Positions 39,001 through 42,000 of a stretch of 64,000 nucleotides of DNA are shown here, one piece after another. The DNA lies in contig CBDDEL010000014.1 of NCBI GenBank assembly GCA_965226885.1, positions 32,001-96,000 on the forward strand, given 5' to 3'. Every line of letters starts with the position of its first letter. Position 1 is the stretch's first letter. A program made the position numbers. The DNA comes from Opitutales bacterium. Lineage in GTDB: Bacteria; Verrucomicrobiota; Verrucomicrobiia; Opitutales; UBA2987.

Positions 39001-42000
39001 CTGCGGGTGGGGGGACTGACTCGTGAGGCCATCGCCCAGTATCTCTATCCTCAGGAAGACTACGGGAGCAGAACCTTCCGGCTGGACGGCCATCCACACC
39101 TGCGTCACGTCCGTGTGGCCGCCCCTGACCTCGGTGCCTACAGCGAACTGCTCAAGATTCCAGGAGGGGCTTTATGAAGGAAGAAAAAAACCAGCTGCTG
39201 TTACACCATCACCTCAAGAAACTGAAGTTGCCCACCATCCTGCGCGAATGGCCGGCGGTGGCCGCGGCTTGTTCCCGGGACCGGCTCGATTACGCCGCCT
39301 TTGTGTTGCATCTGGTCGAACGGGAGCTCATTGAACGCGAACAGCGGGCCGCCCAGCGGCGGATCAAAAACGCCCGTTTCCCCGTGCTCAAGACCCTCGA
39401 GAGCTTCGCCTTTGAAGCGCAGCCCTCGATCAACGAAGCGCTCATCCGAGAGCTCATGCGCGGGGAGTATGTCGACCAGCGCGAAAACGTGCTGCTCCTC
39501 GGTAACGCCGGTACCGGTAAAACGCACCTGGCCACCGCCCTGGGCTTTGCCGCCTGTGCCCAGGGCCGGCGGATCCGTTTCTTCGGGGTCACCGCCCTGG
39601 TTACCCATATGCTCGAGCAACGCGACAACCACGACCTGCAGCGCTTCATGAAGCAACTCGAAAGGCTCGACCTACTCATCCTCGACGAACTCGGTTACGT
39701 CCCTTTTTCCAAGACCGGTTCCGAACTGCTCTTCGACGTGGTCAGCCGCGCTTACGAGCGCACCAGTCTCATCGTCACCACCAACCTGCCCTTTGAGAAC
39801 TGGATCGAAGTGCTCGGTTCCGAACGGCTCACCGGAGCTCTGCTGGACCGACTCACCCATCGGGTGCATATCCTCGAAGCCAACGGGCAAAGCTACCGCT
39901 TGCGCGATGCTCGACGCCGTCGCCGTGGCACAAAACAATAAACGCCTTGGGCCCGGCTCGTCGGCCTCCGGCCTCCTCACCGACCCCAAGCCAATCCCCA
40001 AAACCAACTCCCAAACCCTAAACCTTGACGTACCTGCAATTACTAACCTAAACCTTATTCCAAGCGTACCGGTTTTACCCCGACCCCCGTACCGGTTTCA
40101 TCCCGGCGTTTACAGCCGGGATATGAGGTAATTATCATTCGGGTAGGGAAAGGCCATTATTTGGGCGACCAAAAGGATACCCTAATGGAGCGGTACCCTA
40201 CCAACAATGAATGGGGCAAGTATGGCTGGACCCATTCCAATGATGAAAGTGCCAAAATTGCGGCCAACAATGCTTATCGGGAAGAATTGCTCAAACAGGA
40301 GGGCAAGTGTGCTGCGTAAAGGTATCAGGAAGGGATTGCTGTACGTCTCAAAACGGGGGGTTGGGGGCAAATAGGTATCAGAGTGCCACTTTATCAGAAG
40401 TTCGATGATTTAAGCATGAATTTCACATTCATACCTGTGGACATGGATTCAGAATTAGAACCAGTACGTTTTCTTCAAATTGCATACAATATTGGGGGCG
40501 AAGGATTTCGACGGCGCAGCAGTGACCGGATGGCGGTTCGATTCCGCCCGCCTCCAGCAAATCAAAGGAAAAAACATGAGCAAATGGAGAAAAGTCAAGG
40601 AACGCCTGGAAGACCTTCTCGACGCACCTGATGCCACGATAACGAAGACTGAAGCTGCCAAAAGGCTGGGAATGTCACATCGCGCCCTCCATTTTTATCT
40701 GTGGAACGGGAAATCTGTGCCATCCTATAACCTTGGATGCCAATTTCAGAGGCTACAAAGGCATTTAGAAAAGAAATCCCAATATTCGCCTATAAAATAG
40801 GGATAACCCATTATCACAATATCCCTTTTGATGTGCCGGGGAGAGAGGGACATAATCTATTCTAAACCACATGTTAAATCTAATTTATTATGTAAAATTT
40901 TACAAATAACAATTCAAACAATTTAAGGGAGATAAAACTATATGAAACGGAATCAACCAGCTCAGCCAGCTCCTGTTCCATGGCCCGAGTGTAGTTGAGT
41001 ATCCATTTGGTTTTCTCCTCCTCACTCAGGTCATCTGTGTAAACACCGATGCGCTCGTTGAGGGCTTTTTGCATCCCGAAAATCTCGTCAAACTTGTCCA
41101 TAAGCCCAGATTGCGGGAGGCTCCAGGGCAGGGCAATTCCAAGTTTTTCATAAAAGGCCCTCCTACTTATTCCCAAAACTACGCTAGACCCTGATGAGGC
41201 CCTTTTTCAACATGCCCATAATGGTGGCCGGGGCCTGACGGTTTTTTAATAGATCGCGCATCGTTTTCATATAGGGGTCGATATGGGCGAAGAACCGCTT
41301 GTAGGCGGGGCAGAGGTAGTTGAGTCCGTATTCGCCGTCGGGGGTTTTCATGAAGCGGTGTTTGGGGCATTCTCCGTGGCATGCGAAGCGGTAATCGCAA
41401 CGGCGGCAATAGGCGGGCAGGGTGTCCGCTTTGTCGCGCCCGAATTTTTTCATGGCGGGAGAATCGACCATCTCGGCGATGGTTTTATCGCGGATATTGC
41501 CCTGCAGGTATTGCGGGTAAACATAATGGTCGCAGGCATAAAGGTCGCCATTGTGCTCAATTGCTAGGGCCCGGCCGCAATGCTCGCTGAAAATGCAGAG
41601 GCCCCCACCCATCCCCATCCAGTTGCCCAGCGCCACATCGAATACCTGCACATAAGTATTCCCGACATCGTTGCGCACCCAATGGTCGAAGATCGTGACC
41701 AAAAATTCCCCATAATCTTTGGGCAGCACACTCCAGCGCGTGACCGGACTTAGTTTCTCATTTTCATCCTCGGGTTCTGGGGGAGTGGCCAGGGATAGTT
41801 TCAGCAAAGAAGCGGCGTCATCGGGTTTTCTTTCCACAATGGGAATGAATTGCAGGTAGCGCGAACCGATCTTGCGCAAAAAATTATAAACTTCGAGGGG
41901 TTTTCGGGAATTGCGGCGGGTGACGCAGGTGAGTGTGTTGAAGGGCACCCCATGCTTGCGGCATAGCCCGATGCCGCGCATGACGCGGTCGAAAGTGGAA

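What a model noticed while it worked through the whole genome (the two positions that open the first line are those of the whole stretch)
40494..40559. A 66-nt tmRNA-like gene reduced to the tRNA-like domain, in two mobile-element remnants
Besides its normal 358-nt tmRNA gene (C15:318749-319106) the genome holds two copies (C14:72494-72559 and C10:392994-393059) of a 66-nt sequence that is a complete tmRNA tRNA-like domain and nothing else: 7-bp acceptor stem with the G3-U pair that marks alanine acceptors, the tmRNA-specific GGAUUUCGAC 'D-loop' motif, helix P2a closed by an 11-nt loop in place of the 318 positions that normally carry the pseudoknots and the tag reading frame, T arm, discriminator A. 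The copies differ at 1 of 66 positions while the 854-bp blocks around them are only 86.5% identical, so the RNA is under constraint. Both are followed, 16 nt on, by a 67-74-codon ORF without known relatives; the C10 copy follows a [...]
Evidence so far: Rfam RF00023 match 49.3 bits (cut 47), E 1.4e-17, and 40.9 bits for the second copy; alignment covers model positions 1-22 and 341-374 with no non-canonical pair, middle 318 positions replaced by 11 nt. Sequences, fold and flanks: 65 of 66 identical; flanks 86.5% over 854 bp. No blastn-short hit to the resident tmRNA; longest run shared with its 3' end is 7 nt, so it is not an attachment-site copy of this host's ssrA. Among 24 relatives searched with RF00023 no comparable short match; four of five best short hits fetched are ordinary tRNA-Ala, one (G007) is a different 74-nt minihelix. 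Pattern scans found no copy in genome_contigs, viral_contigs or metagenome_contigs; blastn finds only T-arm [...]
(Added by a program. Inside this text positions count along the whole contig: contig position 32,001 is position 1 of the stretch shown here. "Call 12" and the like, gene names such as g00115 and contig names such as C1 are that model's own, and its searches are not shown. The text may have been shortened before it was handed on; [...] marks where a part breaks off. The agent that wrote the report below was given it as the finding of a first reader that could run no searches.)

Follow-up and report, generated by a model that had tools for sequence, protein, structure and literature searches.

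The report
Phage-type tmRNA reduced to tRNA-like domain
A 66-base gene in two broken phage-like remnants encodes only the tRNA-like end of the ribosome-rescue RNA tmRNA, a stripped-down form with one published phage example, and many similar genes turn up in viral metagenome sequences.

Summary
Window 40494-40559 (+) is a complete tmRNA tRNA-like domain (TLD) with nothing else: Rfam RF00023 scores it 49.3 bits against a cut-off of 47. A second copy lies at C10:392994-393059 with 1 mismatch.

It is not unique in kind. Mycobacteriophage DS6A has a published "TLD only" tmRNA, and similar molecules are reported to inhibit tmRNA, perhaps by titrating SmpB.

In 113 of them a perfect 7-bp acceptor stem is present that the pattern did not ask for. 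Covariation is strong across 90 sequences. They sit inside phage operons, two of them directly behind a DnaB helicase as in the intact C10 copy, and almost never near an integrase.

A marine metagenome contig matches only the 63 nt of the RNA, has unlike flanks on both sides, and continues with CCA.

The upstream flank is 95% identical between the two copies, and the divergence sits in the downstream ORF.

Most likely mechanism, inferred and not shown: an alanine-accepting, SmpB-binding mimic that competes with the resident tmRNA.

Doubts about activity here: the encoded 3' end is GCA while all 49 host tRNA genes encode CCA, both copies lie in IS-cut remnants, and there are no expression data.

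Verdict: a new member of a known kind.

The parts
40494..40559 (+). TLD-only tmRNA ('mini-tmRNA') gene: 63 nt to the discriminator plus the encoded trailer GCA
   Evidence: RF00023 49.3 bits. Own model R1 74.8 bits. A metagenome contig matches exactly 40494-40556 and nothing beside it.
40494..40500 (+). Acceptor stem, 5' strand GGGGGCG. G3 pairs with U at 40553 (the G3:U70 alanine identity pair).
   Evidence: Fold and Rfam alignment. G3:U is present in 90 of 90 family members, where the U was fixed by the search pattern and the G was not.
40501..40511 (+). D-loop analogue AAGGAUUUCGA with the tmRNA motif GGAUUUCGAC (the final C is at 40512) and no D stem
   Evidence: Rfam alignment. Invariant columns G11, T14, T15, C16, G17, A18 in alignment A1.
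40512..40528 (+). P2 hairpin: 6 pairs (C19-G35, G20-C34, G21-C33, C22-G31, G23-U30, C24-G29), a bulged A32 and the loop AGCA. It stands in place of the pseudoknots and the tag reading frame.
   Evidence: Minimum-free-energy fold. The two natural variants keep pairing: C19 to U in copy C10 and C22 to U in run X6. The P2 helix covaries in the family.
40532..40548 (+). T arm: 5-bp stem GGCGG/CCGCC with the 7-nt loop UUCGAUU
   Evidence: Family covariation at the three outer pairs, which the search pattern did not fix.
40549..40556 (+). Acceptor stem 3' strand CGCCUCC and discriminator A
40557..40559 (+). Encoded trailer GCA where a CCA end is expected
   Evidence: All 49 host tRNA genes encode CCA. 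The metagenome relative has CCA here.
40576..40800 (+). 74-codon ORF 16 nt downstream, with a weak helix-turn-helix signal. Paralogues are on C10 (67 aa) and C17.
   Evidence: Pfam MerR at E 0.0095, below the cut-off. Alignment of the three copies. One weak relative in viral contigs, with no mini-tmRNA next to it.
40115..40319 (+). C-terminal remnant of orf118, the gene that follows the DnaB helicase in the intact C10 copy. It is cut here by IS21.
   Evidence: Alignment with C10 and ORFs of L001. 97.1% identity.
37597..40114 (+). IS21-family element (istA 37672-39177, istB 39174-39941) that forms the left edge of this copy. It has no target-site duplication, so the edge is a rearrangement and not a plain insertion.
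   Evidence: Pfam IstB_IS21 at 1e-73. About 80 copies in the genome. Flanks compared with other copies.

Best explanation
This is a phage-derived gene for a tmRNA cut down to its tRNA-like domain, the same kind as the 'TLD only' tmRNA of mycobacteriophage DS6A. It was carried into this genome inside a phage-type replication module (replisome-organiser-like ORF, DnaB helicase, orf118, mini-tmRNA, small HTH ORF). IS elements have since cut that module into two remnants.

Proposed working (inferred):
1. The RNA is transcribed with the surrounding operon.
2. It is released by the tRNA-processing enzymes: RNase P at G1, then 3' trimming and CCA completion.
3. It is charged with alanine by AlaRS through G3:U70 and A73.
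4. It is bound by SmpB, as the TLD of the resident tmRNA is.
5. Because it has no resume codon and no tag frame, it cannot finish trans-translation. It therefore competes with the resident tmRNA for SmpB, and possibly for EF-Tu and stalled ribosomes, which lowers tagging of stalled products during phage growth.

Shown here: the anatomy, the family, the covariation and the phage context. Not shown: transcription, processing, charging, SmpB binding and the effect on trans-translation.

My confidence that it belongs to this RNA kind is about 0.9. My confidence in the competitor mechanism is about 0.45. The figure given below covers the two together.
For: Anatomy:
- All TLD elements are present and the middle 318 model positions are replaced by a hairpin.

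Published precedent:
- PMC11915505 repeats this and adds CDS-less plastid forms of about 65 bp (passage read).
- My model R1, built without DS6A, finds the DS6A gene at JN698994 28478-28557 with 48 bits.

Family in viral contigs:
113 of the 120 have a perfect 7-bp acceptor 5' strand that the pattern did not specify, and there are 92 unique sequences.
- 19 of the 26 short-form viral loci also have the full stem.
- Rfam of 5 tested viral members tmRNA above its cut-off.

Covariation:
- In 12 sequences 98.0% of cells are paired and 9 of 17 pairs change on both sides.
- In 90 sequences 99.1% of cells are paired and 429 cells change on both sides. No shuffle out of 500 reaches this, and slid controls give 43-55% paired.

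Context:
- In the intact C10 copy the gene follows DnaB and orf118.
- Two unrelated viral contigs (L042, L147) also have the mini form directly after a DnaB helicase. The two DnaB proteins share 30% identity, E 8e-51.
- The upstream ORF runs the same way in 10 of 10 short-form loci. The nearest neighbours run the same way in 51 of 66 cases at long-form loci.
- 11 viral members sit beside true tRNA genes.

A discrete unit:
- A 151-nt marine-metagenome contig matches only 40494-40556, with 2 differences and unlike flanks, and is followed by CCA.

Partners:
- The host has one SmpB gene and one PolyA_pol-family nucleotidyltransferase.
Against: - There are no expression data; no listed run holding the sequence is on record as RNA.
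- There is no sigma-70-like promoter just upstream and no terminator after it.
- The encoded 3' end is GCA. All 49 host tRNA genes and the resident tmRNA encode CCA. At least 110 of the 120 viral hits have C after the discriminator. G74 may therefore be a disabling change shared by both copies.
- RNase Z matches only below the family cut-off (82 bits against 293).
- Both copies lie in remnants cut by IS elements.
- Conservation between the two copies is not significantly above that of the upstream flank (P = 0.17).
- The second copy falls below the Rfam cut-off, and Rfam at its cut-off does not report DS6A.
- The inhibition result is known to me only through two citing papers. Mao et al. 2009 was not available.
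- The covariation alignment was fitted to my model. The rows of A2 are those viral loci where I had found 7 of 7 acceptor pairs, plus the window, L001 and DS6A. The search pattern fixed parts of the T arm and of the 3' acceptor strand.
Confidence: 0.55

Rival explanations
1. It is the same kind of gene by descent but is dead here: a relic carried along in decaying phage remnants, kept nearly identical in the two copies only because the duplication or gene conversion of that stretch is recent.
For: - The 3' end reads GCA against CCA in 49 of 49 host tRNA genes and CCA in the metagenome relative.
- Both copies sit in IS-cut fragments. The IS21 at the left edge has no target duplication.
- The 379 bp upstream are 95% identical and the 16 nt downstream are 100% identical, so the RNA is not distinctly better kept.
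- A third copy of the downstream ORF on C17 has lost the RNA altogether.
- No promoter was found.
Against: - Both natural changes seen in the P2 stem keep pairing: C19 to U and C22 to U.
- Measured against the divergence of all flanks together, at most 1 change in 66 has P = 0.0036.
- A CCA end can be added after trimming, and a PolyA_pol-family enzyme is present.
- 73 of the 120 viral hits also lack an encoded CCA, so an encoded CCA is not required in this kind.
Confidence: 0.2
2. It is an auxiliary, tag-free rescue RNA. Ala-TLD with SmpB enters stalled ribosomes and takes over the nascent chain. The complex is then resolved by a release-factor-type rescue protein or by peptidyl-tRNA drop-off, so that phage proteins are not marked for proteolysis.
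For: - The anatomy is the same as in the best explanation.
- CDS-less tmRNAs are conserved in mitochondria and in two plastid genomes together with SmpB, and the authors suggest that they still help with incomplete mRNAs (PMC11915505, passage read).
- The family is common in lytic-type modules, for example between the large terminase and the portal gene in 4 loci.
Against: Nothing here tells rescue from inhibition. The only functional statement in print that I could read describes inhibition. Alternative rescue factors in this host were not searched for.
Confidence: 0.12
3. It is a tRNA-like processing signal. RNase P and 3' tRNA-processing enzymes cut the polycistronic transcript here, which separates or stabilises the downstream HTH ORF message. 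The RNA product itself would have no function.
For: - The element lies inside an operon, 16 nt before the next start codon.
- In viral members the upstream stop codon can lie 1 nt before G1 (L042, L141, L006).
- No promoter or terminator of its own was found.
Against: A processing signal would not need the alanine identity pair, the tmRNA-specific UUCGAC loop or the GGAC junction, yet these are invariant or nearly so across 90 sequences. The flanking genes differ from phage to phage.
Confidence: 0.08
4. It is an attachment or recombination site (attP) of an element that integrates into ssrA, or a by-product of such recombination.
For: - Islands often integrate into tmRNA genes and carry the 3' part of the gene (PMC4383910, abstract in the listing; PMC10865867, passage read).
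- An integrase-like fragment lies beyond the IS21 at 36746-37596 on the minus strand.
- On C17 the homology of the downstream ORF block begins exactly at the 3' end of the RNA.
Against: - An attP needs only the 3' part, but here the 5' strand and the D-loop motif are present and fully complementary.
- The resident ssrA 3' end agrees at only 21 of 28 positions, with a longest shared run of 7 nt.
- None of the 400 other genomes of the class has the 25-nt 3' half with up to 1 mismatch.
- No Pfam integrase hit was found among 81 ORFs around 9 short-form viral loci. Only 1 of 25 long-form loci has a recombinase nearby, a serine-type one.
- DS6A integrates at a tRNA-Lys gene, not at ssrA (PMC10865867, table read).
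- The IS21 junction is a rearrangement, so the integrase fragment is not demonstrably part of the same element.
- The region around its paralogue on C11 (L003) has no match to R1.
Confidence: 0.03

Closest known systems
'TLD only' tmRNA of mycobacteriophage DS6A (tmRNA Website tmID 11587, Phage__Mycobacterium.9)
   Same: A tmRNA reduced to acceptor stem, D-loop analogue, a closed P2 hairpin and T arm, with no tag frame or pseudoknots. It is phage-borne, lies among replication genes (between gp33 and the DNA pol III gene gp34), and is not the phage's attachment site. My model R1 finds it at 48 bits.
   Different: 80 nt against 66, with a longer P2 hairpin (a 20-nt insert relative to the model). 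The loop reads GGUGGUCGAC, not GGAUUUCGAC, and the T loop is preceded by A, not G. It sits in a complete phage of an actinobacterial host, whereas ours lies in IS-cut remnants in a bacterial chromosome. There is no nucleotide-level similarity beyond the shared motifs.
Standard one-piece bacterial tmRNA (Rfam RF00023), such as the resident gene at C15:318749-319106
   Same: The whole tRNA-like domain: G3:U70, discriminator A, the UUCGAC loop, P2a with the G-A/A-G junction, and the T arm.
   Different: It lacks the tag reading frame, the resume codon, helix 5 and all four pseudoknots (11 nt in place of 318 model positions). It encodes GCA, not CCA, and its sequence is unrelated to the resident copy.
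CDS-less organellar tmRNAs (mitochondrial tmRNA; roughly 65-bp plastid forms of Mallomonadaceae)
   Same: Similar size and the same reduction to the TLD. They are kept together with SmpB (PMC11915505, passage read).
   Different: They are organelle genes, vertically inherited, and the only tmRNA of their compartment. Ours is an extra, mobile copy beside a full resident tmRNA. I did not compare sequences.
Displaced 3' fragments of ssrA at the ends of genomic islands (Islander-type att sites)
   Same: They contain the T arm and the 3' acceptor strand of a tmRNA and are associated with mobile DNA.
   Different: Those fragments lack the 5' strand and D-loop motif, match the host ssrA, and lie beside an integrase. 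None of this holds here.
tRNA-Ala
   Same: The G3:U70 identity pair, discriminator A and the T arm.
   Different: No D stem and no anticodon arm. The host tRNA-Ala genes score only 22-27 bits with R1, against 74.8 bits.

Membership tests
tmRNA (Rfam RF00023), canonical | Score at or above the curated gathering cut-off (47 bits) | tested here: met
   49.3 bits for the window copy. The C10 copy scores 40.9 bits and does not reach the cut-off.
tmRNA (Rfam RF00023), canonical | tRNA-like domain: 7-bp acceptor stem with G3:U70, discriminator A, D-loop analogue with UUCGAC, and a T arm with a 7-nt loop | tested here: met
   Rfam alignment with no non-standard pair, and the fold.
tmRNA (Rfam RF00023), canonical | mRNA-like domain: a resume codon and a tag reading frame ending in a stop codon | tested here: not met
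   Only 11 nt stand in place of 318 model positions, and ARAGORN finds no tag. It is therefore not filed as a canonical tmRNA.
tmRNA (Rfam RF00023), canonical | Pseudoknots PK1-PK4 and the long P2 helix | tested here: not met
   Absent. A 17-nt hairpin closes P2.
tmRNA (Rfam RF00023), canonical | A 3' CCA end, encoded or added | tested here: inconclusive
   GCA is encoded. A PolyA_pol-family enzyme is present, but addition was not shown.
TLD-only tmRNA of phages (DS6A kind) | A complete TLD whose P2 is closed by a hairpin, with no tag frame | tested here: met
   It aligns column for column with 10 viral short forms. Model R1 also recovers DS6A.
TLD-only tmRNA of phages (DS6A kind) | Carried by a phage or phage-derived DNA, in addition to the host's own tmRNA | tested here: met
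   A phage-type DnaB (phrog_19, 6.8e-101) and a weak replisome-organiser match lie upstream in copy C10. The resident tmRNA is elsewhere.
TLD-only tmRNA of phages (DS6A kind) | Helices kept by compensatory change across members | tested here: met
   99.1% of cells paired, 11 of 17 pairs changed on both sides, and no shuffle out of 500 reaches this. The selection of rows and the fitting to the model are noted in the report.
TLD-only tmRNA of phages (DS6A kind) | Stable RNA that binds SmpB and inhibits trans-translation | not testable with these tools
   Known only from statements in PMC4131195 and PMC11915505. No RNA run was listed.
attP or att fragment of an ssrA-integrating island | Sequence identity with the host ssrA 3' end across the crossover | tested here: not met
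   21 of 28 positions agree and the longest shared run is 7 nt. None of 400 other genomes of the class has a matching 3' end.
attP or att fragment of an ssrA-integrating island | An adjacent tyrosine integrase | tested here: not met
   None next to the C10 copy. In the window an integrase-like fragment lies only beyond an IS21 rearrangement junction. Integrases are absent around viral members, except for one serine recombinase.
Two-piece (permuted) tmRNA | The 3' acceptor piece is encoded before the 5' piece; matches to RF04321 or RF01849-RF01851 | tested here: not met
   The order here is standard and no such Rfam match occurs in the window. The models do fire on a true case, Pseudomonas phage SM1.

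The most novel reading that the evidence does not exclude
TLD-only tmRNAs are a large family of phage genes, far beyond the single DS6A case, that standard annotation has missed. There are two size classes, about 59-71 nt and 74-86 nt. They are embedded in replication, packaging and tRNA-cluster operons. Phages would use them to disarm or redirect host trans-translation by sponging SmpB and entering stalled ribosomes without a tag. The two copies in this genome would be captured members of that family. If so, trans-translation is a routine target of phage takeover, and SmpB-like domains in defence systems may sense exactly these RNAs.
Probability: 0.35. Interest if true: 0.75.

Novelty: new member of a known kind. 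Interest (0 to 1): 0.55.

Why it matters
Trans-translation is the main ribosome-rescue route of bacteria and a drug target, and phages are known both to depend on it and to carry full tmRNA genes.

A stripped tmRNA that keeps only the part that binds AlaRS, SmpB and the ribosomal A site is a natural dominant-negative design. In the papers I could search, one phage example stands in print. This locus shows that the design also occurs in a bacterial chromosome.

Following it up also showed at least 113 viral contigs with the same anatomy, which ARAGORN does not call. That makes two things testable: whether phages commonly shut down or bypass tagging, and which minimal RNA features SmpB and AlaRS need in vivo.

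For this genome the practical point is annotation. The two loci are phage-derived non-coding genes. They are not fragments of the host ssrA and not integration scars.

Tried and rejected
- **Expression.** The look-up of sequencing runs listed 14 holders and no RNA holder, so nothing can be said about transcription.
- **Close relatives by pattern.** A metagenome-contig scan for the T arm and acceptor of this RNA gave 2 loci, and neither has a 5' acceptor strand.
- **Short-form pattern in genome contigs.** None has a 7 of 7 acceptor stem; by inspection of the sequences, the matches I looked at are 3' ends of resident tmRNAs. That scan therefore says nothing about how common the kind is in bacterial genomes.
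- **blastn against 50,697 phage records.** Only T-arm-sized matches; no record covers 80% of the query.
- **Relatives of the host.** 150 other genomes of the order searched with R1 have nothing comparable. The best hit is a different 70-nt acceptor/T-arm minihelix at 41.7 bits; the rest are tmRNA 3' pieces and tRNAs.
- **Neighbouring proteins.** orf118 and the HTH ORF each have one weak relative in viral contigs, with no mini-tmRNA nearby. orf118 is unrelated to the ORF in the same position in L147.
- **Host phylum.** I guessed Bacteroidota from the tag sequence, from recall. No SusD-family gene was found in a genome that is 96% complete, so I dropped the guess and do not name the organism.
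- **Rfam on a clipped 501-nt stretch of L001.** It gave a truncated 14-bit match, an artefact of clipping. The whole locus gives 40.9 bits.
- **A possible tiny reading frame in the P2 loop.** I considered this by eye and dropped it. No frame is supported and the hairpin is too short to reach the decoding centre. This is my reasoning, not a test.
- **Mao et al. 2009.** The primary source for the inhibition result is not held.
- **RNase Z.** Only matches below the cut-off; inconclusive.
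Full report
**1. What is there**

Window 40494-40559 (+) reads as a tmRNA whose two ends are joined by a short hairpin. Rfam RF00023 scores it 49.3 bits against a curated cut-off of 47, E 1.8e-16. The alignment covers model positions 1-22 and 341-374, has no non-standard pair, and has 11 nt where the model has 318. ARAGORN calls only a tRNA-Glu elsewhere in the window.

The minimum-free-energy fold gives:
- a 7-bp acceptor stem with G3-U;
- an unpaired AAGGAUUUCGA stretch;
- a 6-bp P2 stem with one bulged A and an AGCA loop;
- a 5-bp T stem with a 7-nt loop;
- discriminator A, followed by GCA.

The fold energy on its own is unremarkable (z = -1.2).

The genome is 5.48 Mb in 17 contigs. 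It holds exactly one more copy, at C10:392994-393059, with one change, C19 to T, which turns a C-G pair into U-G. That copy scores 40.9 bits in Rfam, below the cut-off.

The resident tmRNA is at C15:318749-319106 with tag GENEYALAA. It is not the source of the mini form: the longest shared run is 7 nt, and the 3' halves agree at 21 of 28 positions.

**2. Surroundings**

The genome is riddled with insertion sequences. The IS21-family element at window 37597-40114 has about 80 copies, and other elements have 160-330.

The C10 copy shows the original setting inside a 3.36-kb unique island between two IS copies:
- a 321-aa ORF with a weak replisome-organiser match;
- a 448-aa DnaB helicase (Pfam DnaB_C 3.8e-92; phrog_19 6.8e-101);
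- a 118-aa ORF with no family;
- 174 nt of spacer;
- the RNA;
- 16 nt;
- a 67-aa ORF.

In the window the IS21 cuts into orf118, leaving residues from about 51 onward (40115-40319). The IS21 has no target-site duplication, while another copy does, so this edge is a rearrangement. For the same reason the integrase-like fragment on the far side (36746-37596, minus strand) cannot be tied to the element.

A third copy of the downstream ORF, on C17 at 78% identity, has no RNA. There the homology starts at the AGCA that ends the RNA, 30 bp after another IS21 end.

No sigma-70-like promoter lies just upstream of the RNA and no terminator lies after it. One promoter-like site spans the IS21 end junction (40109-40138), but site counts are at chance level.

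**3. The constraint argument**

I cut the C14/C10 alignment into segments.

| Segment | Identity |
|---|---|
| orf118 remnant | 97.1% |
| spacer | 93.1% |
| RNA | 98.5% |
| 16-nt gap | 100% |
| downstream ORF | 76.0% (plus indels) |
| beyond the ORF | 90.4% |

At most one change in 66 has P = 0.17 at the upstream rate, 0.0036 at the rate of all flanks together, and 2.5e-5 at the downstream rate. By itself it does not show selection on the RNA.

**4. Better evidence that the RNA is a unit under selection**

I laid contigs of four public runs on 40115-40946.
- Two runs (X3, X5) carry both of this genome's variants and are not independent.
- A marine-metagenome contig (X6) covers 40397-40547 with two changes. 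One is C22 to T, which again keeps a P2 pair (C-G to U-G).
- A 151-nt contig of another marine metagenome (X7, depth 2) matches only 40494-40556, that is G1 to the discriminator, with 2 differences. It has unlike sequence on both sides, and the sequence after the discriminator begins CCA.

So the RNA occurs as a discrete cassette in another context, and there it has the normal CCA.

**5. It belongs to a family of phage genes**

A loose pattern was used: UUCGAC, a gap of 12-40 nt, GGUUCGANUCC, six free bases, then CUCCA.
- In 113 of the 120 the 7 nt that the pattern did not specify, 13-16 nt upstream, pair perfectly with the 3' strand.
- 118 of the 120 have G opposite U70.
- 92 sequences are unique.
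- 47 of the 120 encode CCA, and at least 110 of the 120 have C after the discriminator.

Sizes fall in two classes. One is 59-71 nt, like ours. The other, a majority class, is 74-86 nt; its P2 stem opens into an A-rich internal loop and an apical hairpin. A complete scan for the short class gave 26 viral loci, 19 of them with the full acceptor stem.

Rfam of 5 tested members tmRNA at 52-72 bits.

*Covariation.*
- An alignment of our two copies with 10 viral short forms has 98.0% of cells paired and 9 of 17 pairs changed on both sides.
- Ninety sequences aligned to my model R1 have 99.1% of cells paired, 429 cells changed on both sides, no shuffle out of 500 that reaches this, and 43-55% paired when partners are slid.

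Three caveats apply. The viral rows of A2 come from loci where I had already found 7 of 7 acceptor pairs, so helix 1 is paired by selection. The pattern fixed two T-stem pairs and U70. The alignment was fitted to the model. The P2 helix and the three outer T-stem pairs are free of the first two caveats, and they carry most of the compensatory changes.

*Searches with R1.* It finds only the two copies in the own genome (74.8 and 71.7 bits; next best 26.9). It finds nothing comparable in 150 other genomes of the order.

*ARAGORN.* It calls none of 86 such sequences (85 viral plus the window) as tmRNA. It miscalls one as a tRNA. It finds true tRNA genes within 150 nt of 11 others.

**6. Context of the family**

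- Around 9 of the 10 unique short-form loci (81 ORFs; L149 was left out of the call) there is no integrase. L042 and L147 have a DnaB helicase ending 1 nt and about 320 nt before the RNA. This is the same order as in copy C10, although the DnaB proteins share only 30% identity.
- The upstream ORF runs the same way in 10 of 10 short-form loci.
- Around 25 long-form loci (150 ORFs, the first 150 of 203 from 33 eligible loci) the RNA lies in several settings: between the large terminase and the portal gene (4 loci), between head genes, or in replication and recombination modules. One locus has a serine recombinase about 650 nt away.
- The nearest neighbours run the same way in 51 of 66 cases.

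**7. What is known**

- Hudson, Lau and Williams 2014 (PMC4131195, passages read) list 'Mycobacterium phage DS6A (TLD only)'. They state that a similar molecule, chargeable or not, strongly inhibits tmRNA, perhaps by titrating SmpB, and cite Mao et al. 2009, which I could not obtain.
- The 2025 tmRNA database paper (PMC11915505, passages read) repeats this. It adds CDS-less plastid forms of about 65 bp and the CDS-less mitochondrial tmRNAs.
- R1 locates the DS6A gene, which is not annotated in the record, at 28478-28557 between gp33 and the DNA pol III gene.
- DS6A integrates at a tRNA-Lys gene (PMC10865867, table read), so its TLD is not its attP.
- Five full-text searches turned up no paper describing more than the DS6A case among phages. 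Papers in subscription journals are not covered, and I did not look at supplements.

**8. How it most likely works**

*Shown:* the RNA has every element that a tmRNA uses as a tRNA and none that it uses as a messenger. It belongs to a covarying family carried inside phage operons.

*From established knowledge of tmRNA (recalled, not from a call):* G3:U70 with A73 is the AlaRS identity set, and the TLD alone is the SmpB-binding part.

*Inferred:* the RNA is cut out of the operon transcript by tRNA-processing enzymes, completed to CCA, charged, bound by SmpB, and then competes with the resident tmRNA. Because it cannot supply a resume codon, the outcome is less tagging.

I put the kind at about 0.9 and this mechanism at about 0.45.

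*Rivals:*
- a dead relic in this genome (0.2), favoured by GCA against 49 of 49 host tRNA genes with CCA and by the IS-cut setting;
- tag-free rescue (0.12);
- a mere processing signal (0.08);
- an attachment site (0.03), against which stand the presence of the 5' half, the mismatch with the resident ssrA, no matching 3' end in 400 other genomes of the class and the lack of integrases near family members.

The host has one SmpB and one PolyA_pol-family enzyme. RNase Z is inconclusive.

**9. Verdict**

The finding is real and correctly read in its anatomy. It is a new member of a known kind and not a new kind. The added value is the setting (a bacterial chromosome, two IS-cut phage remnants) and the lead it gives to a much larger, mostly unannotated viral family.

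Noticed in passing
viral loci L004-L123 (for example L004:3001-3079, L008:3001-3079, L014:3001-3081): A majority class of viral TLD-only tmRNAs is 74-86 nt long (75 unique sequences). In these the P2 stem opens into an A-rich internal loop, often UAAAAC or UAAGAC, followed by a short apical hairpin. By eye this resembles the start of pseudoknot 1 of full tmRNAs. I did not test whether the frequent UAA has any meaning.
   Followed up: partly
L004, L040, L061, L076 (about 2880-3080 in each locus): In four related viral contigs the mini-tmRNA sits between the large terminase gene and the portal gene. In L008 it sits between the head protease and the major head protein.
   Followed up: partly
L005, L010, L016, L020, L022, L027, L039, L067, L068, L079, L097: Eleven viral mini-tmRNAs lie within 150 nt of ordinary tRNA genes, so they are part of phage tRNA clusters. 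In L067 the next gene downstream (about 190 nt on) matches phrog_850, annotated as an RNA-binding protein (4.6e-116).
   Followed up: no
L131 = G087:C3:672414-672483: A genome of the same order has a 70-nt RNA-like element with a G3:U acceptor stem and a T arm. A long hairpin stands in place of the UUCGAC loop and P2. It is a different minihelix (R1 41.7 bits).
   Followed up: no
L279 2419-2810 (Pseudomonas phage SM1, NC_041877, about 54019-54410): A permuted (two-piece) tmRNA gene (RF04321 at 118.6 bits; RF01850 at 111.2 bits) lies in a stretch of the phage record with no annotated feature.
   Followed up: no
window 37597-40114, 43550-44163, 46769-48000 and the whole genome: There is an extreme load of insertion sequences. 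The IS21-family element has about 80 copies. Several other elements have 160-330 copies or fragments each, and many are nested in one another.
   Followed up: partly
window 40109-40138: A promoter-like site (TTTACA, an 18-nt spacer, TATCAT; 10 of 12 matches) has its first hexamer in the last bases of the IS21 and its second hexamer in the flank. It points towards the mini-tmRNA. Site counts in the region are at chance level.
   Followed up: no
C17:226952-227300 (L002): A third, 78%-identical copy of the small HTH ORF lacks the RNA. Its homology starts exactly at the AGCA that ends the RNA, 30 bp after an IS21 end. The start of orf118 lies on the other side of that IS21.
   Followed up: partly
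L280 301-1503 (DS6A gp76): Phage DS6A, the published carrier of a TLD-only tmRNA, also encodes an RtcB-like RNA ligase. A preprint read in passages (PMC10542128) cites work reporting that tmRNA is the most frequent RtcB target in bacteria. It also describes SmpB-like domains in CoCoNuT defence systems.
   Followed up: no
window 40947-42579 and C13:243292-244972: The DNA to the right of the block (a dUTPase_2-like ORF and a radical SAM/SPASM gene, both on the minus strand) has a 90.6%-identical second copy on C13. That copy begins exactly where the C10 homology ends at an IS, so the second copy of the region may have been split between two contigs by IS activity.
   Followed up: partly
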